NCBI GenBank assembly: GCA_034003985.1
Contig: JAVEXP010000003.1
Location: forward strand, 122,643 to 186,642
Direction: 5' to 3'
Source of the DNA: Patescibacteria group bacterium
GTDB taxonomy: Bacteria; Patescibacteriota; Patescibacteriia; Buchananbacterales; UBA6539
DNA: 64,000 nt
Shown here: one piece after another, positions 4,231-61,595 of the stretch
How positions within the stretch are numbered: position 1 is the first letter of the stretch
How the letters are laid out: every line of letters starts with the position of its first letter
The notes under the pieces: generated by a model
What the model was told of the DNA's origin: nothing
The model's input: only the letters and a program-made list of their open reading frames with translations
Databases searched by the model: none
Made by a program: the position numbers and the translations under genes

Positions 4231-4506
4231 TTATTCTACTACTGCTAACACATCCTCATCGCTAAGAATCTTATATTCTTTCTCGTCGACCTTAACTTCC
4301 TCGCCGGAATACTTGCCAAAAATCACTCGGTCGCCAACCTTCAGACCAAGCTTTTGAATTTTTTCGCCATCGCCCAAAGCGATAATCTTACCTTCGGCCT
4401 TTTTTTCCTTATCAACGGTTTCGGGCAAAATAATGCCCGATTTGGTAGTTTCTTCTTCGGCTAAAGCCTCAACCACTACCCGATTGCCCAATGGTCTTAG
4501 TTTCAT
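4231..4506 (-). CDS. groS: co-chaperonin GroES
   Basis: 91 aa, MKLRPLGNRVVV..., immediately upstream of groEL. Confidence 0.95.
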   Translation of the reverse strand: MKLRPLGNRVVVEALAEEETTKSGIILPETVDKEKKAEGKIIALGDGEKIQKLGLKVGDRVIFGKYSGEEVKVDEKEYKILSDEDVLAVVE

Positions 4507-10072: not shown

Positions 10073-11332
10073 TTAACTAAACATTATCCAAGCGGGTTTG
10101 AAAATTAATAAAATTCCTAAAATAAAAATCACAACGCCGCCAATTAGACTAGACCAACGACTATATTTACCACTCAAACCGGCACTACGCAAAGTAATCA
10201 TTGCAACGGCAAATACAATCATATCATCCAGCATAAAGAAAACAATATAAAGCACCAAATAAGCGTAATATTCCCAAGTCGTTAAATTGGAAATCGAAAG
10301 GACTTGGGCATAAACAGCCGGCAGACCAGCCGAGCAAACCAATTCAACCATATTAACGGCCAAGGCAACGCTGATTATTCCGGCTAAAGCTAACAAAAAT
10401 ATTTTTTGTTCACTAACCCGTTTCAAGCGATCCATAATCTTTTTTTTCTGTGCTTGGTTAGTAACTTTGCATAACCCGCTCTTATTTACATACCACTCTC
10501 GAAGATGGTAGATGCCACTGCCAATAGCCACCAAGCCAATGGCAATCCGAACATAAGAAATAAAACCAATAAACAAAAAGAAATTGAGCCAAGCCGCCAG
10601 AAACAAAAAATAGATAAAACTGGAAGTAAGAATGAAAGCAGCTCCCAGAATCCACATTTTCTTACGGTCTTCCATACCCAACAGCAGACTGATCAAAAAA
10701 ATTAAGACCCACATGGCGCAAGGATTGAAACCGTCCAAGGCACCAATAGCAATGGTTAATAACGGCAAAGACCAGGCCTGAACATCAATCACGCCCAATA
10801 ATGGCAAATTTATTAAAGTTGAAGCTTCGGAATTTGGTAAATGATTATTATCATTATTGCCCAAACCGGGCGCTGGTGGCGCGGGTTCATTTTGAAGTTG
10901 GTCACCCAAAATTTTGCCAACCTCGTCTTCACAGCCCTGAACCAAACATTGTTCAATATCTTGCCTAATAGTTTTGCCGGTAGTGTTAGGAGAACCAAAA
11001 CCAATCGTAATCCGATTACCAATGATAGTAATTGGAACACCCGAGCTTTTAATGTTGAAGGCCTTGGCTACTTGCTGCAGCTTTTCAATATTTTCCTGAT
11101 TATACCAAACTTCATAAGAGACGATTTTCAATTGAGAAAATTCTTTTTTCAGCTCCGCAAAAAATTCCTCTTCATCAGCGCAATGAGGACAACCGTTGCC
11201 ATAAAAAAAATACACTGTCGGCAACTTAGCCGATGGCGCTTGGGCCAAAATAAAATCAGGGAAAATAAAAAAACCACCAACCAAAACCAAAACAATTAAC
11301 GATAATAATATTTTTTTCATTGGATTAATCAT
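10073..11332 (-). CDS. thioredoxin-fold domain (CPHC) fused to a DsbD/CcdA-like transmembrane thiol-disulfide transporter domain
   Basis: GCPHC motif N-terminal. C-terminal multi-TM region with two conserved Cys (FNPCA, CSAG). Confidence 0.55.
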   Translation of the reverse strand: MINPMKKILLSLIVLVLVGGFFIFPDFILAQAPSAKLPTVYFFYGNGCPHCADEEEFFAELKKEFSQLKIVSYEVWYNQENIEKLQQVAKAFNIKSSGVPITIIGNRITIGFGSPNTTGKTIRQDIEQCLVQGCEDEVGKILGDQLQNEPAPPAPGLGNNDNNHLPNSEASTLINLPLLGVIDVQAWSLPLLTIAIGALDGFNPCAMWVLIFLISLLLGMEDRKKMWILGAAFILTSSFIYFLFLAAWLNFFLFIGFISYVRIAIGLVAIGSGIYHLREWYVNKSGLCKVTNQAQKKKIMDRLKRVSEQKIFLLALAGIISVALAVNMVELVCSAGLPAVYAQVLSISNLTTWEYYAYLVLYIVFFMLDDMIVFAVAMITLRSAGLSGKYSRWSSLIGGVVIFILGILLIFKPAWIMFS

Positions 11333-20887: not shown

Positions 20888-20970
20888 CTTTCCTCAAGCT
20901 CCACCAAGTACCATGCCTGACAAGGTTAGTTGGAAGGAGGAACACGCCGCAAAGCTGGTGCTCCTCCATT
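20888..20970 (+). repeat. structured repeat element, copy 1 of a 5-member family (conserved box TTGGAAGGAGGA at 20930-20941)
   Basis: Shares about 45 nt (CCTCAAGC.CCAC.AAGTACCAT..) with copy 5. Covarying hairpin GGAGGAACAC/GTGCTCCTCC ends 8 nt from the G6 stop. Confidence 0.6.
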
Positions 20971-21419: not shown

Positions 21420-21499
21420 CTTCCAACTAACCTCATCAAACCCTGAGCCCGATGAGATTAGTTGGAAGGAGGAGCACACAGTACCACTGGCACTCCTTC
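21420..21499 (+). repeat. structured repeat element, copy 2
   Basis: Near-perfect 18-bp palindrome CTTCCAACTAACCTCATC-13 nt-GATGAGATTAGTTGGAAG. Then GGAGGAG box and hairpin GAAGGAG/CTCCTTC ending 18 nt from the G5 stop. Confidence 0.6.
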
Positions 21500-21517
21500 G
21501 AGACGGTCACCTAGATC

Positions 21518-22794: not shown

Positions 22795-22868
22795 ATTCCT
22801 GTTTTGCCAGTCAAAATTTCACGGGCAAAATTGGAAGGAGGAGTCGCAAGCACCACTTGGACTCCTCC
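22795..22868 (+). repeat. structured repeat element, copy 3
   Basis: ATTCCTGTTTTGCC-15 nt-GGCAAAATTGGAA palindrome. Then GGAGGAGTC-14 nt-GACTCCTCC hairpin. Confidence 0.55.
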
Positions 22869-23023
22869 GCATTAACCTGATGGTTTATTTTCTGCCCTCA
22901 CATCTTTGGGCCGATATCACTTTGCAACATTTCAGTTGCCGGATTTGCCTATCGCACCGGTCCCAATCATTCAAGATTGGCGCTTCTGTTAAGGCCTGAG
23001 CTTGCCTTTGGTCACCACCAGTG

Positions 23024-24223
23024 CTACTGCACCGCGATGACCAAGCCAAGAGCGATGTCCTGGACATGCGTCCAGGCAATCGTCGCCCCGGCTCCTGGCT
23101 GAAATGTCGCGCAGGCGGCCGCGCGACCGTGGTAGGCCATGGCCAAACTGGCCATCAGCCAGTTCGGGCCGCGGCCCGACAGAACCACGACCGTTCCCAG
23201 CCCGACTTCGGGCGGGACGATCATGTCGAGGGCCGCGGGCGCCAGGGGGACGCTCGGGTCGAGCGCGAACTCAACCCGCACGCACCGGCGCTCGCCCAGC
23301 GCCGGCAGATCGCTGACGGTCCAGCCGCAGCCGGAACCGTCACCCGACGGGCTGGGGCAGCCCACGGCGATGTAGCCGTCGGGCGAGTTCACCCGCGCCG
23401 AGCGCGGGTGAACCTCGTGCACCAGCGCGGCAACGAGCCACGCCGGTGCGGCGCCGTCGATATCCACCACCTCGGGGAAGGTGGCGGACTGATTATGGAG
23501 CAACCCCGCGACACTCGCGAGGTCTACCCCCTCCCAGCAAAGTTGCTGCACAACCTTGCCGTTAGGGAGCGTCCGCTCCACCGCGTTTTTCCCCAGCGCT
23601 GCGGCCAGCGCCGGGATCGAAATTACATTTCCGTTGAGGAGCATACGCCCCTCCTTTCTTTCGTTGCGGCCGAGCTCGGGCCCAGCCAGACTCAAAATCA
23701 ATTCCGCCACGGCGACGATCGCCGGGCGGTCGTTGACACTCACCTCGCCCCGTTCGAGGTGGTGAACCACTCCTTCCAGCCGGGGCACGGTCTGCTGGAT
23801 GGAGTCGGCGGCGCCTTGATAATCACTGTCCAAGACAGCGACCACCTCAACGCCCAGTTGGGCTAGGAACGCCTCCCACTCGGGGACGGCATTCCGATCA
23901 CCCGCGAGAATGATCCCGTGAGTGATCCCTCCCTCCGAAACGATGCGAGCGTTTTCGGAGGAAGTCCGGCCGCCGATATCCACGAGGACAATCGGCGCCA
24001 GACTGCAGGAGGCGAGAGACTGGCAGTACCAGTCAACTATCTCCTGCGAGAAAGACCCTTTACGACGGTGCTTTTCAGCACCATTGCCGCGCCAGGTCCA
24101 GCTCCCTTCCCCGTCCGGGCAGGCCCGGAACAGGTAACGGGAACTTCTTGGCAGGTTCTCGCATAACCCGCCAAGAAATACGGACTTCCCACTGTGGGGA
24201 GGTCCGGCGACAACGATTTTCAT
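23024..24223 (-). CDS. island gene G3, very GC-rich P-loop NTPase (Walker A GPPHSGKS, DIGG Walker B/G3-like) with uncharacterised C-terminal half
   Basis: AAAGGAGG RBS 6 nt upstream of ATG (MKIVVAGPPHSGKSVF...). About 400 codons. Plus-strand ORFs over it are Arg-rich antisense shadows. Confidence 0.6.
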   Translation of the reverse strand: MKIVVAGPPHSGKSVFLGGLCENLPRSSRYLFRACPDGEGSWTWRGNGAEKHRRKGSFSQEIVDWYCQSLASCSLAPIVLVDIGGRTSSENARIVSEGGITHGIILAGDRNAVPEWEAFLAQLGVEVVAVLDSDYQGAADSIQQTVPRLEGVVHHLERGEVSVNDRPAIVAVAELILSLAGPELGRNERKEGRMLLNGNVISIPALAAALGKNAVERTLPNGKVVQQLCWEGVDLASVAGLLHNQSATFPEVVDIDGAAPAWLVAALVHEVHPRSARVNSPDGYIAVGCPSPSGDGSGCGWTVSDLPALGERRCVRVEFALDPSVPLAPAALDMIVPPEVGLGTVVVLSGRGPNWLMASLAMAYHGRAAACATFQPGAGATIAWTHVQDIALGLVIAVQ

Positions 24224-24296
24224 CGCTGCCTCCTTTCTCCCCGATTGGGGAGTTTTTATTTTTATGGAAACCAGCCGCCTCACATCAGCGTCCGGG

Positions 24297-24380
24297 AATT
24301 TCCCTCAGGACTTACCAACAGACAAACATATTGCTGATAAATCCAGTTGGGAGGAGGAACTACTGAACCACAGCCGTTCC
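24297..24380 (+). repeat. structured repeat element, copy 4 (diverged)
   Basis: TTCCCTCAGG...ACCAAC...GTTGGGAGGAGGAAC. Weaker hairpin GGAAC/GTTCC. Confidence 0.4.
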
Positions 24381-24623
24381 CCCAAATAACCAATGGCACC
24401 ACGCGGCGGTGCCACTATCACGATCGATTAACCCCCATCGATCAAAGGAGTATTCAGATTTACTCTCGAAAGAGAGAAGGCCTAACACACAAGGCCTTTT
24501 GCCAATGCTTTTACGCGGATGGCTGCTCTAATTACTAGAGCTTTACCGCAACTCGGATAATTTAATACCCGAGGCTATGATGGTACAAACCGCAAATACT
24601 TACACACGGTTTGTACCCCCCCA

Positions 24624-24833
24624 TCAAGGTCCCTCGATCAGTCGGCGAACCGACCGCTCAAGGGATCTTTTGATCCCCCACGAGATTTGGGCCCCCAGCA
24701 GGGAGCCCGCCTGGCAGGATACCTCAATATCGATTGGACCATCGAGGTATTCAATGGCGGCCAAAGCCGCCGGCAAGTCCTTCTTGTCGACGGCGGCTGT
24801 AAGCCGCCGAAATCCTTCTAACAATTCATCCAT
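24624..24833 (-). CDS. island gene G2, 69-aa hypothetical protein
   Basis: AAGGAGGA RBS 6 nt upstream of ATG. Followed 10 nt after its stop by a perfect 11-bp hairpin. Confidence 0.45.
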   Translation of the reverse strand: MDELLEGFRRLTAAVDKKDLPAALAAIEYLDGPIDIEVSCQAGSLLGAQISWGIKRSLERSVRRLIEGP

Positions 24834-24926
24834 GGCGTCCTCCTTTCATAGAGTTTCGGCTCGCCACGAGCCGCCCCCTAGGGGAAATTTCTTCTTTTCC
24901 CGCGCCGCACATTGGCTCGAGATTTT

Positions 24927-25001
24927 TTCCCTCAAGCCCCACAAGTACCATACTTGTGAAGCTAATTGGAAGGAGAAGCCGACAAAGCAGTCGGCTTCTC
25001 C
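24927..25001 (+). repeat. structured repeat element, copy 5
   Basis: TTCCCTCAAGCCCCACAAGTACCAT. Then CACAAGTA/TACTTGTG hairpin, TTGGAAGGAG box, and 12-bp hairpin GGAGAAGCCGAC/GTCGGCTTCTCC ending 8 nt from the G1 stop. Confidence 0.6.
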
Positions 25002-25009
25002 GTTATTAA

Positions 25010-25273
25010 TTAGTCGTACTTAACAACTGTTTCCATCTCTTCCGTATTTCTCGACTGACAATTCGGGCACATCGGCTTAAGTATTTTATGCGTCAGTTCC
25101 CCGCCGCAGTCGTCGCATTTGCCAACGGCATTTTCATCAAAGCCATCTCGGGGCAAAGCTTTTATTTTATCGCAATCAAGGCAATGATAATTATAGAATA
25201 AGGCACCATCGCCCAAATTGGACCTAAATTCATTTTGGCAATCATTGCACTTGCACATCACAATAATACCCAT
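25010..25273 (-). CDS. island gene G1, double zinc-ribbon small protein (four CxxC pairs)
   Basis: CKCNDC...CLDC...CDDC...CPNC in 87 aa. Confidence 0.55.
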   Translation of the reverse strand: MGIIVMCKCNDCQNEFRSNLGDGALFYNYHCLDCDKIKALPRDGFDENAVGKCDDCGGELTHKILKPMCPNCQSRNTEEMETVVKYD

Positions 25274-26345
25274 ACCTTAAATCATTATTAATTTCTTGTT
25301 TTTTGCTTTCTTAAAATTGTCAAAGTACTTCCTATTTTAGCTCCTCACCAGATGCTCCTAATACCTGGAGTAATTTCATTTCTCTTAAAATTATTTTTTC
25401 TAACTAGGATTGTTCTTTCCGCAAACCGGTGGTTAATCGGCCTACGGAAAACGTCAATCCCAACTAGGTTTGACGCTTGGCCCGGTCCAAAAAATTCAGA
25501 ATCAATACCTCACCCTTTAAGCGAAGCCTGATTAATCAAAAATTCTTAAACCGCTAGCGCTTGCTCATCGCCAAATTTTTGCCAAGTTGAGCATAGTTTG
25601 AAAGTCTATGCTGAAGACTAATTCTCTCCTCAAACATCAGACTTCAATTTAGACTATAATGAACATTTTTTCTCTCTTATTGAGAGAATGCTGCAGAAAA
25701 AGAAATTCTTGGCTTAGCTTTAGGCCTTTTTTTTATTTAGACAATGTTAATTTATGCCAGCCGCGCTTATTTTTTTTACCGCCGACCGCCTGGGCGCTAA
25801 AAACGCTTTTGGCAGTGTGGCATCTCTCCTCTTTCTGCAATATCTTCCCAACAAAAAATCCGCTTTTCGCGGAGAGTTACTTTGCTCATATGACATATGC
25901 TATAAGCTAACAAGTACTCTCTCCACTTAGTACTTCCTATATAATGTAATGTTCGGCTAGTGATTTTAACCACTGTCTCCGACCACCGTCACGGCCGGAT
26001 CACACTGATTACAATCTTTTGGGCTTAAAGAAGATTTACCAAGGTATATCTTTCTCCTCAATTAGCAGACCTTGATTAACCTTTACCTTTTTACTGCCCT
26101 TTTGATTAACCCCTCTTGCTGGTTGTCATTCTCCTCAAATGGCTTCCAGACTTGTTGGGGATGTGTTTTATAGAACCTTTTGTCAGCTTTTAAAACTTCT
26201 TGGTTTTTTAGCTTAACGAGTCATTATAGCATATCTTAAAAATACTGTCAAGTATTTGTGACAATAATTATTCATTAAATTGTATTTTAGCTAAAATAAG
26301 CTAGCTTAGTTTGGTAAATTTAGCTAAATATTTGTCATAAATTCT

Positions 26346-26378
26346 TGACAAAAAATTATAAAAGGTATATAATAATAA
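26346..26378 (+). promoter_or_regulatory. sigma70-like promoter for the TrmB-like regulator
   Basis: TTGACA-17-TATAAT. Confidence 0.5.
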
Positions 26379-26408: not shown

Positions 26409-27236
26409 ATGTACGAGCAACACCTCAAACAAGCCGGTTTGTCTAAAGAACAGGCGGAAATATATGAGCTGTTAATTAAAAAAGGCCCACAAAAAGCCGG
26501 CAAAATAAGCCAAAAAACCACGCTGAAGCGAGGCTTAGTCTACAAAATTCTTGAACAACTAGTGGATTTTGGCTTGGTTGAGAAAATAGAAAAGGAGGGT
26601 CAAATAGCAACTTTTATTCCGGCCCATCCCCTAAAGCTGAGAGAGCTGGCTCAAAAGCAGGAACAGCAGGCCAAAGACGCCCAGCTGGCCTTGGCTGGAG
26701 TTTTGCCTTCTATTATCTCTGACTTTAATTTGGTTTCAGGCAAGCCGGGCGTCCGATTTTTCGAGGGTGCAAGCGGCTTAAAACAAATTTATGACGATAT
26801 ATTGGCGACTCTGAAAAACAGCGAAACTTTTTATTTAATCCGGGCCGCTTATGAGCCAGTGTATAAAGAAAAAATGATCCCAATTATTGACGATTTTATT
26901 AAAAAAAGAGTGAAAAAAAACATTAATGTCGTCGCCTTAACTCCCGCCGACGAGCTGGCTGAAGAAAAAACAACGAATACCCAGGCGGACCAGGCAATTC
27001 TGTTTGACCGGACCTTGGTTGATAAAAAAAAATACTCCCAGCCGGTGGAAATTGACATATATGGTGATAAAATTGCCATGCTTTCTTTCGGCCAGGAATT
27101 AATCGGCACAATAATAGAAAGTCCCCAGATCTCTGGGGCTTTAAAAGAAATTTTTATTTTAGCTCAAAAAGGCGCCAAACTTAAGCCGCCGCTGGAAGAT
27201 CAAGGGCTTTATGATGGGATCCGTAATGTTCCTTAA
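26409..27236 (+). CDS. TrmB-family transcriptional regulator
   Basis: N-terminal wHTH (LSKEQAEIYELLIKKGPQKAGKISQKT...) with C-terminal TrmB-type effector domain. Confidence 0.7.
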   Translation: MYEQHLKQAGLSKEQAEIYELLIKKGPQKAGKISQKTTLKRGLVYKILEQLVDFGLVEKIEKEGQIATFIPAHPLKLRELAQKQEQQAKDAQLALAGVLPSIISDFNLVSGKPGVRFFEGASGLKQIYDDILATLKNSETFYLIRAAYEPVYKEKMIPIIDDFIKKRVKKNINVVALTPADELAEEKTTNTQADQAILFDRTLVDKKKYSQPVEIDIYGDKIAMLSFGQELIGTIIESPQISGALKEIFILAQKGAKLKPPLEDQGLYDGIRNVP

Positions 27237-29693: not shown

Positions 29694-30608
29694 ATGAATA
29701 AATTAATCAACCAATTTTTAGAATACCTGGAAATCGAAAAAGGCCGAAGCCTGAACACGGTTCAGAATTATCATTTTTATCTCAACCGTTTTGCCGAGTG
29801 GTCAAAAATAAAAAAGCCTGAGCAGATAAATCAAGATTTGGTCAGGAGCTATCGTATTTGGCTCAACCGTCAAACTGACAACCGAGGTGAAGTCCTGGAA
29901 AAATCAACCCAAAATTATCACCTGATTGCCCTAAGATCATTTTTAAAATATTTGTCCAAGATTGATGTCAACTCAATGGCACCGGAAAAAATTGAACTGG
30001 CCAAAATGCCGCAACGCCAAGTTGATTTTTTGGAAGGCCCTGACTTGGAAAGATTATTAGAAGCACCGCTGAAAAGCGCGGAACCAGAAATCATTAAGCT
30101 ACGCGACAAGGCGATTTTGGAATTATTATTTTCAACCGGCTTGCGGGTCTCGGAACTTTCCAAACTCAACCAAGACCAAATCAATTTAGCCAAAGAAGAA
30201 TTTACCGTCCGTGGCAAAGGCAGCAAATTACGGGTGGTTTTTTTGTCTAATCAGGCCAAACATTGGCTAAAGCAATATTTGGAAAAAAGAAAGGATCTAT
30301 CCCCCAGCCTATTTGTCCGTCACGACCGGGCCAAGGGTAAAAAAGAAGCAGAAAATCTAACACCCCGAAGCATTCAGCGGCTGATTAAAAAGTATGCCAA
30401 AGAAGCTGGGATTGCCAAAGACATCACACCCCACACCATGCGCCACAGTTTTGCAACAGATCTGCTGATTAATGGCGCCGACATTCGTTCCGTCCAATCA
30501 ATGCTGGGACATTCCTCAATTACCACCACCCAAATTTACACTCACTTAACAGATCACCAGCTGCGTGAAGTTTATAAAACTTTCCACCAACGCCAAAGAC
30601 GCAAGTAA
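29694..30608 (+). CDS. tyrosine recombinase, XerC/XerD family
   Basis: R..HxxR..Y catalytic signature: HTMRHSFATDLL...LGHSSITTTQIYTHL. Confidence 0.8.
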   Translation: MNKLINQFLEYLEIEKGRSLNTVQNYHFYLNRFAEWSKIKKPEQINQDLVRSYRIWLNRQTDNRGEVLEKSTQNYHLIALRSFLKYLSKIDVNSMAPEKIELAKMPQRQVDFLEGPDLERLLEAPLKSAEPEIIKLRDKAILELLFSTGLRVSELSKLNQDQINLAKEEFTVRGKGSKLRVVFLSNQAKHWLKQYLEKRKDLSPSLFVRHDRAKGKKEAENLTPRSIQRLIKKYAKEAGIAKDITPHTMRHSFATDLLINGADIRSVQSMLGHSSITTTQIYTHLTDHQLREVYKTFHQRQRRK

Positions 30609-30656: not shown

Positions 30657-30731
30657 GCCCCTGTAGTTCAACGGATAGAACGAGGGCCTTCTAAGCCTTA
30701 GATCAAGGTTCGATTCCTTGCGGGGGCACCA
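30657..30731 (+). tRNA. tRNA-Arg (anticodon TCT)
   Basis: Cloverleaf folds. Anticodon loop CTTCTAA. Encoded CCA. Confidence 0.8.
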
Positions 30732-30755
30732 GAAAAGTTTAACCCCTGATTATAA

Positions 30756-30830
30756 GCCCCCTTAGTTCAACGGATAGAATGTGGGCTTCCGGAGCCTAAG
30801 ATGTAGGTTCGATTCCTACAGGGGGCACCA
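30756..30830 (+). tRNA. tRNA-Arg (anticodon CCG)
   Basis: Anticodon loop TTCCGGA. T-arm GTAGG-TTCGATT-CCTAC. CCA encoded. Confidence 0.75.
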
Positions 30831-30846
30831 GTAGAAAATTAAATAT

Positions 30847-30922
30847 GGTGGCCTTGGTGAAACGGTTATCACGCGAGTTTGTGGCACTCGCATTACGGGT
30901 TCGATTCCCGTAGGCCACCCCA
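30847..30922 (+). tRNA. tRNA-His (anticodon GTG) with G-1
   Basis: Anticodon loop TTGTGGC. Extra 5' G pairs with discriminator C. CCA encoded. Confidence 0.8.
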
Positions 30923-46554: not shown

Positions 46555-46630
46555 GCCCATGTAGCTCAGCGGTTAGAGCGCCACCCTTATAAGGTGGATG
46601 TCGGTGGTTCAAATCCACCCATGGGCACCA
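46555..46630 (+). tRNA. tRNA-Ile (anticodon TAT)
   Basis: Anticodon stem CCACC/GGTGG with loop CTTATAA. CCA encoded. Confidence 0.7.
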
Positions 46631-60633: not shown

Positions 60634-61371
60634 TTAAAGTTTTTTCCATATGAACTCAAAAATAATTTTTTGAGTCTGGAAAATATTTTGGTCTTCAATA
60701 ATAATGCCAATTGGCTTTTCGTACTGGTCAACCGAAATCATTGCCACCTTGCCGGCATATATTAAGATATAAGTTGGCGTACTTTCTTCCTTAGTCAGCC
60801 ATTTGCGTTCATCTAATCCTCTGGTTTCGCCGCCCGGACCCATGGAAATAACTTTGACTTTGATCCCGGCAGAAATCCGATCATCGGAAAATTCCGGATA
60901 AACATTATACAAATATTTTCTGATACTCGATGCCGAATAAACATAATAAACTTTTTCGTCAGCCTGACGGCAAGAATCAATAACATCCTTTAGAACAAAC
61001 TCCACACCACTGTAACCTTCATAAAATTTAGAAACTGGCTTACTGCCAGCGTTATTGTAAATCGAACGAAGCTGCGGAATAAACTCCTCAATTTCCTGTT
61101 TGGTTTTTTCCAGTTGCTGTTGGCGTTGACGCACCACTTCCTTAAGCCGGGAAGGATCTTCGGCAATAAAATACTGCCGTTTATCCTTGTGATGATAACT
61201 AACCAAACCCAAAGCAATCAAATGTTTTAGAATATCATAAGCGGTTTGACGGTTAATGTCTGAGGCTTCGGCAATTTTTCTGACCGGTGAAGGTCCAAGT
61301 TTAAGGCAAGATAAGTATATTTTACTCTCTTTTTGGTCCAAGCCAAGTTTTTCAAGGGTTTGATCAATCAT
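60634..61371 (-). CDS. TrmB-family transcriptional regulator (second copy)
   Basis: N-terminal wHTH LDQKESKIYLSCLKLGPSPVRKIAEASDINRQTAYDILKHL. Confidence 0.7.
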   Translation of the reverse strand: MIDQTLEKLGLDQKESKIYLSCLKLGPSPVRKIAEASDINRQTAYDILKHLIALGLVSYHHKDKRQYFIAEDPSRLKEVVRQRQQQLEKTKQEIEEFIPQLRSIYNNAGSKPVSKFYEGYSGVEFVLKDVIDSCRQADEKVYYVYSASSIRKYLYNVYPEFSDDRISAGIKVKVISMGPGGETRGLDERKWLTKEESTPTYILIYAGKVAMISVDQYEKPIGIIIEDQNIFQTQKIIFEFIWKKL

Positions 61372-61595
61372 AAAACAATATTTCTATTATAAGTAGATTA
61401 AAATATTTGTCAATTTTTTTCTGACAAAAAATGTGGATAATTAATTATTTTAGCTTATTTTAGCTAAATTTATGTAAAAAAATTGTCAATTTAAAAACCA
61501 AAAAACATTTAACAATCCAATAGTAACCACCATAAACTGACCAATATTAAAACTGATCCATGGATGGATCAGTTTTAATATTGGTAAAAAATATT

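What the first reader, a model, noticed from the sequence alone, without database searches (positions are those of the whole stretch)
24376..24623. Hairpin-dense 250-nt spacer between island genes G3 and G2
The spacer has no ORF but packs at least seven independent stem-loops:

- GGCACC-acgcggc-GGTGCC
- two ATCGAT palindromes
- CTCTC-GAAA-GAGAG (GNRA loop)
- AGGCCT...AGGCCT followed by TTTT
- GCTCTA-gtaat-TAGAGC
- CTCGG...CCGAG
- a perfect 11-bp stem GGTACAAACCG-14 nt-CGGTTTGTACC starting 10 nt after the G2 stop

This density of stable, GC-rich local structure in a small-genome organism suggests a structured RNA (sRNA, RNA antitoxin, or processing/terminator module), not ordinary intergenic DNA.
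Basis: seen in the sequence. Interest (0 to 1): 0.6.

Follow-up and report, generated by a model that had tools for sequence, protein, structure and literature searches.

The report
Hairpin-rich RNA spacer before Csx3 gene
The hairpin-packed gap between two genes is real, and its core is a conserved pseudoknotted RNA motif absent from Rfam that sits beside Csx3-type genes in other uncultured bacteria, usually next to self-cleaving ribozymes, so it most likely helps cut or stabilise the operon's RNA.

Summary
All listed hairpins exist. The stretch ranks first of about 63,750 windows for perfect hairpins of 7 bp or more, and folds with z = -6.4.

It is the middle of a 400-nt gap (24224-24623, sense = minus strand). 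The gap lies between a 69-aa ORF (G2) and a P-loop/Csx3 (Crn3) fusion gene, in an operon beside a divergent TrmB regulator.

The core (24418-24500, "R1") has two hairpins and a loop-linker pseudoknot. R1 recurs on the coding strand beside Csx3-fusion genes in four other lineages. 96% of cells pair and 10 pairs show compensatory changes. Rfam 15 has no match.

In three of those lineages a type III hammerhead lies 58-78 nt downstream. In L053 a pistol ribozyme follows a looser look-alike that scored only E 1.1. The window keeps R1 and the GGAG...CUCC hairpin that precedes every hammerhead in the relatives. That hairpin occurs in five intercistronic gaps of this operon. The window has no ribozyme.

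Best reading: an intercistronic RNA processing and stability module, homologous to ribozyme-bearing modules. What R1 itself does is unknown. It could be a new ribozyme or a binding site. I found no support for an RNA antitoxin, a terminator or a repeat element.

The parts
24224..24623 (-). Whole intercistronic spacer between G2 and the Csx3-fusion gene. It is a chain of at least 9 local hairpins.
   Evidence: Sequence and ORF map; folds; hairpin census.
24582..24617 (-). H1: perfect 11-bp hairpin with a 14-nt loop, 6 nt after the G2 stop. It has no U tract and no homologue elsewhere.
24552..24573 (-). H2: 5-bp perfect stem (7-8 bp in the MFE fold). Lineage-specific.
24525..24541 (-). H3: GCUCUA-GUAAU-UAGAGC hairpin. 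Lineage-specific.
24418..24500 (-). R1, the conserved pseudoknotted RNA motif. Layout: P1 hairpin, optional inserted hairpin, UAAAU linker, pseudoknot strand, CUCCUU, then P3 hairpin with a GGRGGUYA loop.
   Evidence: BLAST match to L058. CM R1 then found L005, L030 and L071 and L101/L102. Covariation. No Rfam family matches.
24479..24496 (-). R1 P1: GGCC-UUGUGUGUUA-GGCC. The perfect hairpin with its flanks spans 24477-24498.
   Evidence: Helix 1: 100% of cells paired, and 3 of 4 pairs change on both sides.
24463..24476 (-). Inserted hairpin CUCUC-UUUC-GAGAG. L058 has CUC-GAAA-GAG here. L005, L030 and L071 lack it.
   Evidence: Alignments A4 and A5.
24450..24454 (-). 3' strand (AAUAC) of the pseudoknot. 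It pairs with P1-loop bases 24484-24488 (GUGUU).
   Evidence: Helix 2: 5 pairs, 100% of cells paired, 2 pairs with changes on both sides. This helix was not part of the covariance model that made the alignment.
24421..24444 (-). R1 P3: UGAUCGAU-GGGGGUUA-AUCGAUCG, with a conserved GGRGGUYA loop. The loop may pair with the CUCCUU at 24445-24450; those bases do not vary, so this pairing is untested.
   Evidence: Helix 3: 5 of 9 pairs change on both sides, and column pair 66-81 shows four different Watson-Crick pairs.
24394..24414 (-). H7: UGGCACC-GCCGCGU-GGUGCCA. L058 has a hairpin at the same place (GCGGAU-GGU-AUCCGC). Its U tract is weak.
24343..24383 (-). H8: GGGGGAAC...GUUCCUCC followed by UCCCAACUGG. 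It is one of five copies of the operon's GGAG...CUCC + UUCCAA intercistronic hairpin. It aligns with the hairpin that precedes the hammerhead in L058 and L096.
24230..24252 (-). CUCCCC-AAUC-GGGGAG hairpin that runs into the AAGGAGG ribosome-binding site of the Csx3-fusion gene.
24624..24833 (-). G2: a 69-aa ORF with a strong SD (GAAAGGAGG). It is an ORFan. It shows weak similarity to a 78-aa ORF that precedes the pistol module in L053.
   Evidence: One gene caller preferred the antisense 148-aa ORF instead.
23024..24223 (-). G3: a 399-aa fusion of an N-terminal P-loop domain and a C-terminal Csx3/Crn3 domain. It is 66% GC in a 41% GC Patescibacteria genome.
   Evidence: Pfam PF09620 at 1.9e-16; PDB AF_1864 Csx3 at about 1e-12; more than 400 homologues.
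26223..26251 (-). Consensus sigma-70 promoter (TTGACA-17-TATAAT with TG) that probably drives the operon. The region is conserved in L019, L023 and L085.
26409..27236 (+). Divergent TrmB-family regulator with its own consensus promoter at 26345-26373. The same neighbour recurs in L019, L023, L056, L058, L062, L071 and L106.
24972..25001 (-). Copy of the GGAG...CUCC + UUCCAA hairpin, right after the zn87 stop.
22831..22869 (-). Copy of the same hairpin element, after the Csx3-fusion gene.
21462..21500 (-). Copy of the same hairpin element, after p201.
20930..20968 (-). Copy of the same hairpin element, after p123.

Best explanation
The stretch is the centre of a 400-nt intercistronic RNA spacer, transcribed on the minus strand. 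It belongs to one operon (zn87, G2, spacer, P-loop/Csx3 fusion, p174, p201, p123, p100). That operon probably starts at the consensus promoter at 26223-26251, next to a divergent TrmB regulator.

The spacer is a string of independent hairpins built around a conserved pseudoknotted motif of about 83 nt (R1, 24418-24500). It is homologous to modules in related loci with this layout: R1, then one or two hairpins, then a GGAG...CUCC hairpin, then a type III hammerhead ribozyme. In L053 a pistol ribozyme follows an R1-like element.

In those relatives the module cuts the polycistronic RNA at a fixed point. The upstream piece is left with a 3' hairpin. The downstream piece is left with a folded 5'-OH end. 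The window's copy has lost, or never had, the ribozyme. It keeps R1 and the GGAG hairpin.

So I read it as a processing and stability module. It would uncouple the fate of the G2 and Csx3-fusion cistrons, with its hairpins acting as barriers to exonucleases.

What is shown and what is inferred:
- Shown: the hairpins exist, R1 is conserved with covariation, it shares the gene's strand, and ribozymes occur in the relatives.
- Inferred: co-transcription, processing, stabilisation, and any role for R1.
For: **Hairpin density and stability:**

**R1 conservation.**
- A model built only from the window and L058 finds L005 (E 9e-6), L030 (E 5e-4) and L071 (E 0.03) in 408 kb.
- It also finds L101/L102 (E 5e-7).
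- Every hit lies on the strand of the Csx3-fusion gene and within 300 nt of it.

**R1 covariation.**
- 96.4% of cells form standard pairs, against 18-44% when partners are slid.
- 10 of 18 pairs change on both sides.
- The pseudoknot helix, which was not in the model, pairs in 100% of cells. Its pairings read GUGU/AUAC, GUGU/ACAC, GUGC/GCAC, GAGC/GCUC and GCGU/ACGC.

**Ribozymes in relatives.**
- Type III hammerheads lie at 14 sites on 11 sequence-distinct loci (L016 twice, L026, L028, L030, L032, L058, L077, L085, L093, L096, L101 twice, L102), plus identical copies on L079, L094 and L095. They were found by core pattern and by my own model.
- In the 11 aligned hammerheads, 97.7% of cells pair and 13 of 16 pairs change on both sides.
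- Rfam RF00008 gives E 7e-8 to 0.04 for four of them.
- Pistol RF02679 scores 68 bits in L053.

**Order of parts.** R1 is followed 58-78 nt later by a hammerhead in L058, L030 and L101/L102.

**The GGAG...CUCC hairpin.**
- It sits immediately 5' of every hammerhead.
- The window's H8 aligns with it.
- The window carries five copies, in five intercistronic gaps of the operon.

**Operon context.**
- There are consensus divergent promoters, and no promoter-like site on the sense strand inside the gap.
- The TrmB neighbour recurs.
- L053 has a weakly G2-like small ORF (E 5e-4), then an R1-like P1/pseudoknot/P3 (E 1.1), then pistol.
Against: - There are no expression data, so co-transcription and processing are untested.
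- The window has no ribozyme, so 'processing' here rests on homology of the flanking parts.
- R1 is known from only 4-5 lineages, and L005, L030 and L101 are close to one another.
- All loci were fetched through the Csx3-fusion gene. The association of R1 and the hammerheads with that gene is therefore not tested against a background.
- Most Csx3-fusion loci (about 60 of about 75) have neither R1 nor a hammerhead.
- H1-H3 have no homologues.
- MFE z-scores are just as extreme in the neighbouring coding sequence.
- G2 may not be a real gene. If it is not, the noncoding region is longer than described.
Confidence: 0.55

Rival explanations
1. R1 is itself a functional RNA of a new class. It could be a self-cleaving ribozyme that stands in for the missing hammerhead. 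It could instead be an aptamer or protein-binding site, for example for the P-loop/Csx3 protein or for a nucleotide signal such as cA4, that controls the module.
For: - R1 persists in the window and in L071 where no hammerhead is present, so it has a function of its own.
- It has invariant unpaired bases (UAAAU, GA, CUCCUU, GGRGGUYA) framed by covarying helices, and a compact pseudoknot.
- It lies next to known self-cleaving ribozymes. From my own knowledge of Weinberg et al. 2015, that kind of neighbourhood is how pistol, hatchet and twister-sister were found.
- Its layout (P1, A-rich linker, loop-linker pseudoknot, P3) resembles the 5' two-thirds of pistol.
Against: - There is no biochemical evidence.
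- There is no match to any Rfam ribozyme or riboswitch, even at E up to 10.
- I could not find a consistent closing helix or cleavage dinucleotide by eye.
- R1 lies upstream of the Csx3-fusion gene in two lineages and downstream in three. That argues against a simple 5'-UTR riboswitch for that gene.
Confidence: 0.17
2. The hairpins are intrinsic terminators or attenuators. They would end G2 transcription or gate read-through into the Csx3-fusion gene.
For: The scan flags 24417-24391 and 24498-24477 as terminator-like on the minus strand. H1 lies just after the G2 stop.
Against: - The tails are poor: GUUAUUUGGG and CUCUCUUUCG.
- H1 has no U tract at all.
- The matching hairpins in L058 have no U tract, and none was called there.
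- There is no promoter in the gap to restart transcription.
- Eight or more hairpins are far more than termination needs.
Confidence: 0.1
3. The hairpins act at the DNA level. They would be recombination or cassette-junction sites of a mobile, modular region, and the RNA-level structure would be incidental.
For: - The GC-rich G2-spacer-Csx3 block sits in a 41% GC genome.
- Contigs from other metagenomes break at 25007, and contigs of relatives break 190-700 nt upstream of the gene.
- Close relatives L009 and L010 differ by swapped hairpin blocks.
- A 19-24-nt direct repeat flanks a cassette in L093.
- An integrase lies 5 kb away.
Against: - R1 keeps base pairing while the stem sequences change and the loops stay fixed. 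Some pairs are G-U on one strand only.
- The elements always share the genes' strand.
- The hairpins are all different, and none is repeated elsewhere in the window.
- Modular turnover is also compatible with RNA function.
Confidence: 0.08
4. It is a free-standing small RNA or a type III RNA antitoxin encoded between the genes.
For: A dense, stable structure in a gap with no convincing ORF.
Against: - No promoter-like site lies inside the gap on either strand at the scan's threshold.
- There are no tandem repeats.
- No ToxN/AbiE-type toxin gene is adjacent.
- In relatives the same motif lies in different positions relative to the genes, but always in sense.
Confidence: 0.05
5. Apart from R1, the hairpins are a by-product of composition in a GC-rich foreign island and have no function.
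For: The neighbouring coding sequence folds with z = -8.7 and also ranks high for perfect hairpins. H1-H3 have no homologues.
Against: - The stretch is only 47% GC, yet it ranks first for hairpins of 7 bp or more.
- Hairpin-dense gaps recur upstream of this gene family: 42% of 59 loci have z below -3, against 27% of coding controls.
- R1, H7 and H8 have counterparts in L058.
Confidence: 0.05

Closest known systems
Type III hammerhead ribozyme modules between bacterial genes (Rfam RF00008)
   Same: Same place and strand: intercistronic, in sense, next to Csx3-fusion genes. The relatives' modules share R1 and the GGAG...CUCC hairpin with the window's spacer, and they end in a hammerhead.
   Different: The window has no hammerhead. 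The CUGANGA...GAAA core is absent, and my model gives nothing better than 9.6 bits in the interval.
Pistol ribozyme (Rfam RF02679)
   Same: R1 shares the order of parts: a P1 hairpin whose loop pairs with a downstream strand, an A-rich linker (UAAAU against pistol's AUAAAUA), then a P3 hairpin. A true pistol occupies the same slot after a G2-like ORF in L053.
   Different: Pistol's conserved nucleotides are absent. There is no cmscan hit at E up to 10. I found no P2 closing helix. The G-U cleavage step is not conserved across R1 members.
Intercistronic mRNA-stabilising hairpins and processing sites in bacterial operons (REP-type 3' hairpins, RNase-processed polycistronic mRNAs). This comparison rests on established knowledge.
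   Same: Stable hairpins between cistrons of one operon. One hairpin type is repeated in five intercistronic gaps of the operon.
   Different: These are not genome-wide repeats. The hairpin type is operon-specific and is tied to ribozymes in relatives. The spacer also holds a pseudoknotted motif with conserved loops.
RAGATH-type motifs (RNAs found near genes associated with twister and hammerhead ribozymes; Weinberg et al. 2017, from my own knowledge; these families are in Rfam)
   Same: R1 is a small conserved structured RNA found beside self-cleaving ribozymes and a recurrent gene class.
   Different: No RAGATH family or any other Rfam family matches R1. The only RAGATH hit was a chance-level match elsewhere in L101 (26 bits against a gathering score of 85.6).

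Membership tests
Hammerhead ribozyme, type III | Three-way junction with the conserved core CUGANGA ... GAAA and an NUH cleavage site. | tested here: not met
   A core-pattern search and covariance model R2 (built from 11 local hammerheads) find none in the window. The only whole-window hit is chance-level (12.9 bits, E 2.7, at 11139-11209). The best hit in 24150-26300 with filters off is 9.6 bits. The pattern search is. In relatives the feature is met.
Pistol ribozyme | Match to the RF02679 consensus, that is the conserved nucleotides of the linker, the pseudoknot and the G-U site. | tested here: not met
   cmscan of 23900-25100 at E up to 10 lists no pistol hit. L053 scores 68 bits.
Pistol ribozyme | P1-loop pseudoknot with a downstream strand, plus a P2 helix that closes around P3. 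| tested here: inconclusive
   The pseudoknot is present and covaries. I found no consistent P2 by inspecting the five sequences.
Intrinsic (Rho-independent) terminator | A GC-rich hairpin followed directly by a U tract on the transcribed strand, conserved in relatives. | tested here: not met
   Two weak calls with poor tails. H1 has no U tract. None is called at the matching L058 positions.
Type III toxin-antitoxin RNA antitoxin (ToxI-like) | Tandem direct repeats of the antitoxin unit next to an endoribonuclease toxin gene. | tested here: not met
   Only short two-copy direct repeats of 9-14 nt are present. The neighbours are a Csx3 fusion and an ORFan.
Riboswitch / 5'-UTR cis-regulator of the Csx3-fusion gene | A conserved aptamer consistently upstream of the regulated gene, with an expression platform. 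| tested here: not met
   R1 is upstream of the gene in the window and L058, but immediately downstream of its stop in L005/L101, L030 and L071. Ligand binding cannot be tested with these tools.
CRISPR array or degenerate array | Regularly spaced direct repeats. | tested here: not met
   None in the gap or anywhere in the window.
REP / MITE-type dispersed repeat | Many copies of the same palindromic unit across the genome. | tested here: not met
   R1 occurs once in the 64 kb. Only the GGAG...CUCC hairpin is repeated, and only within this operon. The rest of the genome was not available.
Any curated RNA family (Rfam 15) | A score at or above a family's gathering threshold. | tested here: not met
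   Only tRNAs reach threshold in the window. In the region itself nothing scores above 19 bits.
Csx3/Crn3 ring nuclease (for the neighbouring gene G3) | A Csx3 domain (PF09620 / AF_1864 fold). | tested here: met
   PF09620 at E 1.9e-16 over residues 325-396. PDB 3wzh/6vjg at about 1e-12. NCBIfam TIGR02579 scores 49.2, below its cut-off of 55.4. Catalytic activity and association with a type III CRISPR system were not tested. No CRISPR array is present in the window.

The most novel reading that the evidence does not exclude
R1 (24418-24500) would be the founding member of a new class of functional RNA tied to P-loop/Csx3 genes and to hammerhead and pistol ribozymes. It could be a new self-cleaving ribozyme. 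It could instead be a dedicated RNA partner or sensor of the P-loop/Csx3 protein.

If so, the loci would form an RNA cutting and end-processing system. Ribozymes make 2',3'-cyclic phosphate and 5'-OH ends. Csx3 enzymes make or handle the same chemistry, and the P-loop domain might act as a kinase. Such a system would operate outside CRISPR immunity in Patescibacteria.
Probability: 0.15. Interest if true: 0.85.

Novelty: new variant of a known kind. Interest (0 to 1): 0.6.

Why it matters
**Ribozyme biology.** What hammerhead, pistol and related small ribozymes do in bacteria is still largely unknown. These loci offer a defined, recurrent setting. About 75 loci of one gene family (P-loop/Csx3 fusion, often beside a TrmB regulator) carry type III hammerheads at 14 sites, one pistol, a shared pre-ribozyme hairpin, and a pseudoknotted motif absent from Rfam. 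That makes the question testable. One can ask whether the modules cut the operon RNA, what the ends look like, and whether the Csx3 fusion acts on them.

**A ribozyme candidate.** R1 is a concrete candidate for ribozyme screening, of the kind that earlier led to new ribozyme classes.

**Gene annotation.** The result suggests that 'CRISPR-associated Csx3' genes in CRISPR-poor Patescibacteria may have an RNA-processing role. This is an inference.

**If the conservative reading is right.** The finding is then a well-documented example of a structured intercistronic module, plus one new RNA motif.

Tried and rejected
**Searches that found nothing useful**
- Rfam: the whole window at gathering thresholds and the region at E up to 10. 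Only chance-level hits, such as Plasmid_RNAIII at 18.5 bits.
- Identical copies of the locus (L001-L003, L018). All are 100% identical, so they carry no covariation signal.
- G2 homologues: none by tblastn in the loci and none in 5.8 billion proteins.
- Sequence-level search of R1 pieces in all loci, with mismatches allowed: only the window and L058.
- Viral contigs. A 19-mer gave 4 hits. The one I read lies in a phage coding region, and the count is what chance predicts. A stricter R1 pattern gave none.
- Phage records: no DNA or protein match.
- Refined R1 model R3: no further full members in 418 kb or in L106-L108.
- Literature: nothing links Csx3 with ribozymes or Patescibacteria. The Weinberg 2015 paper is not held.

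**Ideas considered and dropped**
- Hammerhead relic in the window. By eye, 24290-24345 has pieces that resemble stem I and stem II, but the model gives no signal. Not claimed.
- GGTTAATC as a repeated protein site. It occurs 4 times in the 2.2-kb interval, which is too weak.
- Small ORFs starting after the GGAGG loop of R1. The peptides are not conserved (inspection).
- A uORF reading of the GGAG hairpins. Three copies would end in PPSN-stop, but the copy in the spacer breaks the frame after three codons. Left open as a side note.
- A sliding MFE-versus-GC regression. It was uninformative because GC-rich coding sequence dominates.

**Failed run**
Full report
**1. What is at the coordinates**

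The window comes from a Patescibacteria (CPR) genome of about 41% GC. Genes around the finding run on the minus strand.
- G2 (24624-24833) is a 69-aa ORF behind a GAAAGGAGG site.
- G3 (23024-24223) encodes 399 aa behind an AAGGAGG site.
- The gap between them is 24224-24623, 400 nt. The reported 248 nt is its upstream two-thirds.
- G3 has an N-terminal P-loop (GPPHSGKS) and a C-terminal Csx3/Crn3 domain. Pfam PF09620 gives 1.9e-16. PDB AF_1864 Csx3 gives about 1e-12.
- G3 is 66-75% GC.

**2. Checking the observation**

The two 'ATCGAT palindromes' are the two arms of one hairpin.

Statistics:
- The minus strand folds at -99.7 kcal/mol, z = -6.4. The plus strand gives z = -6.8.
- The stretch has the highest coverage by perfect hairpins of 7 bp or more of any 248-nt window in the 64 kb. 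It is in the top 1% for stems of 5 bp or more.

Caveat: a 250-nt piece of the GC-rich G3 coding sequence gives z = -8.7. The z-score alone therefore proves little here. The local-hairpin count and the conservation carry the argument.

Rfam finds nothing in the region.

**3. Related loci**

Exact copies of the locus in other assemblies are 100% identical. I therefore collected loci through the G3 family.
- The family has more than 400 homologues.
- One genome locus was found (L004).
- 80 metagenome loci were found (L005-L084).
- Contigs were fetched for nine individual homologues.

Many of these loci share the window's layout.
- A divergent TrmB-family regulator is present in L019, L023, L056, L058, L062, L071 and L106.
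- Consensus divergent promoters are present. The window has 26251-26223 on the minus strand and 26345-26373 on the plus strand, both 12 of 12. The promoter region is conserved in L019, L023 and L085.
- Long ORF-poor intervals of 0.9-2.2 kb lie before the Csx3-fusion gene.
- The 250 nt upstream of the gene folds with z below -3 in 42% of 59 loci, against 27% of coding controls.

**4. The conserved core, R1**

The spacer matches L058 over about 76 nt, upstream of a gene that is only 42% identical. The stem sequences differ there, but the pairing and the loops are kept.

A covariance model built from these two sequences found more copies:
- L005 (E 9e-6), L030 (E 5e-4) and L071 (E 0.03) in 408 kb.
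- L101 and L102 (E 5e-7).
- Every hit is on the gene's strand.
- In these three lineages R1 lies just downstream of the Csx3-fusion stop codon. In the window and L058 it lies upstream of the gene.

The motif reads as follows:
- P1, GGYY-UYGUGNGYUU-RRCC.
- An optional small hairpin, present only in the window and L058.
- UAAAU.
- A strand that pairs with the P1 loop.
- CUCCUU.
- P3, with loop GGRGGUYA.

Pair counts:
- 96.4% of cells form standard pairs, against 18-44% with slid partners.
- 10 of 18 pairs change on both sides.
- The pseudoknot helix was not in the model, yet it pairs in every sequence. The pairings are GUGU/AUAC, GUGU/ACAC, GUGC/GCAC, GAGC/GCUC and GCGU/ACGC.
- G-U pairs occur on the sense strand only.

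Limits and partial relatives:
- There are five sequences from four or five lineages.
- A refined model finds no further full members.
- L010 has a partial version with P1 and the pseudoknot.
- L053 has an analogous P1/pseudoknot/P3 (E 1.1; sequence).

**5. Ribozymes next door**

Reading L030 downstream of R1 showed a textbook type III hammerhead.
- A core-pattern search and a local model (R2) found hammerheads at 14 sites on 11 sequence-distinct loci: L016 (two), L026, L028, L030, L032, L058, L077, L085, L093, L096, L101 (two) and L102. Identical copies lie on L079, L094 and L095.
- All but one are on the gene's strand, either upstream or downstream of the Csx3-fusion gene.
- In the 11 aligned hammerheads, 97.7% of cells pair and 13 of 16 pairs change on both sides.
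- Rfam RF00008 scores four of them at E 7e-8 to 0.04, just under its gathering score, and a fifth at E 1.6.
- L053 carries a pistol ribozyme at 68 bits, against a gathering score of 34.5. It follows the R1-like element, which in turn follows a small ORF weakly similar to G2 (31% identity, E 5e-4).
- R1 is followed 58-78 nt later by a hammerhead in L058, L030 and L101/L102.
- Every hammerhead is preceded directly by a GGAG...(A)ACUCC hairpin.

**6. What the window has and lacks**

The window has no hammerhead and no other Rfam ribozyme. It does keep three parts of the module:
- R1.
- A hairpin (H7) at the same place as one in L058.
- H8 (24353-24383 plus tail), which aligns with the pre-hammerhead hairpin.

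The same element, GGAGGAG...CUCCUCC followed by UUCCAAYUAA, occurs five times in the window, each in an intercistronic gap of the operon:
- after zn87, 24972-25001
- H8 in the spacer
- after G3, 22831-22869
- after p201, 21462-21500
- after p123, 20930-20968

The inner stem bases differ between the copies while pairing is kept.

**7. Interpretation**

The spacer is best read as a sense-strand intercistronic RNA module that is homologous to ribozyme-bearing modules.
- In the relatives, self-cleavage would leave the upstream RNA ending in the GGAG hairpin. The downstream RNA would begin with a folded 5'-OH ribozyme.
- From general knowledge of bacterial RNA decay, both kinds of end slow exonucleases and 5'-end-dependent RNases.
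- In the window the ribozyme is missing. Cutting, if it happens, would need a protein RNase, and the hairpins would act as barriers.
- These steps are inferred. What is shown is the structure, its conservation, its strand, and its company.
- R1's own role is open. It survives without a hammerhead in the window and in L071, so it is not just a ribozyme accessory.

**8. Rivals**

- Terminators: poor U tracts, and they are not conserved.
- RNA antitoxin or sRNA: no repeats, no internal promoter, no toxin gene.
- DNA-level cassette junctions. The region does look modular: contigs break near it, and L009 and L010 differ by swapped hairpin blocks. The covariation pattern, the G-U pairs and the fixed orientation nonetheless point to RNA.
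- Compositional by-product: possible for H1-H3, which have no homologues, but not for R1, H7 or H8.

**9. Novelty**

Structured intercistronic modules and bacterial hammerheads are known. Three things are new here:
- The R1 motif, which has no Rfam family.
- The operon-wide GGAG hairpin tied to ribozymes.
- The recurrent link of these RNAs with a P-loop/Csx3 gene family in CRISPR-poor bacteria.

The link is not yet tested against a background, because every locus was fetched through that gene.

Noticed in passing
window 24972-25001, 24353-24383, 22831-22869, 21462-21500, 20930-20968 (minus strand): Five copies of a GGAGGAG...CUCCUCC hairpin followed by UUCCAAYUAA, each in an intercistronic gap of the operon. 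Three copies could also be read as tiny uORFs ending in Pro-Pro-Ser-Asn-stop. The copy in the spacer breaks that frame.
   Followed up: partly
L016:2605-2661 and 4241-4297; L026:1283-1347; L028:4150-4206; L030:1444-1500; L032:2499-2555(-); L058:2151-2207; L077:562-618; L085:4661-4719; L093:2820-2876; L096:1985-2041; L101:1454-1510 and 1817-1873: Type III hammerhead ribozymes flank P-loop/Csx3 genes in many related loci. In L016 one lies on each side of the gene. In L101 two flank a 51-aa ORF, which could release an excised, possibly circularisable RNA.
   Followed up: partly
L058:2151-2207 and L101:1454-1510: Two hammerheads carry CCGAUGAG instead of CUGAUGAG in the catalytic core, with all stems intact. 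They could be inactive copies or a natural core variant.
   Followed up: no
L053:2144-2210: A pistol ribozyme (RF02679, 68 bits). It lies between a G2-like small ORF and a 136-aa ORF, upstream of a Csx3-fusion gene, inside another hairpin-dense spacer of about 430 nt.
   Followed up: partly
window 26223-26373, with 26280-26289 and 26318-26327; also 61437-61468: Perfect divergent sigma-70 promoters lie between the TrmB gene and the operon. The palindrome TTTAGCTAAA occurs twice between them. A similar sequence lies next to a second TrmB paralogue (60658-61371). It is a candidate TrmB operator.
   Followed up: no
window 25274-26215 (minus strand): About 940 nt with no convincing ORF lies between the predicted transcription start and zn87. 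Comparable gene-free stretches of 0.9-2.1 kb lie between TrmB and the Csx3-fusion gene in L019, L056, L058 and L106, and upstream of the gene in L012 and L078. Rfam finds nothing there.
   Followed up: partly
window 23024-24223: The Csx3-fusion coding sequence is 66-75% GC in a 41% GC genome. It folds far better than shuffles (z = -8.7) and has the densest cover of 5-bp-or-longer hairpins in the window. It looks like foreign DNA. It may carry RNA structure within the coding sequence, or the result may be a codon-periodicity artefact.
   Followed up: no
window 25007; L002, L003, L091, L092, L094-L096: Contigs from independent assemblies end at window 25007, and 190-710 nt upstream of the gene in relatives. 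This suggests strain-variable or hard-to-assemble sequence just upstream of these genes.
   Followed up: no
L093:828-851 and 1435-1453; after the hammerheads in L077, L093, L096 and L101: A direct repeat (GTTCTTTTCAATTTAATAT) flanks a cassette of about 600 nt with a 51-aa zinc-ribbon-like ORF. A GTTCTTT motif recurs a few bases after hammerheads and about 110-150 nt upstream of the gene in L004, L085 and L092.
   Followed up: no
window 24577-25023 (+): A 148-aa ORF antisense to G2 was called by one pipeline instead of G2. It has no ribosome-binding site and a low-complexity product, so it is probably spurious. Which of the two is real is not settled.
   Followed up: partly
window 29694-30608 and 30657-30922; 46555-46630: A tyrosine integrase gene lies directly beside a tRNA-Arg/Arg/His cluster, about 5 kb from the operon. 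The window also has a tRNA-Ile with anticodon TAT.
   Followed up: no
L011:818-1054: A HEARO RNA (RF02033, 136 bits) lies about 2 kb upstream of a Csx3-fusion gene.
   Followed up: no
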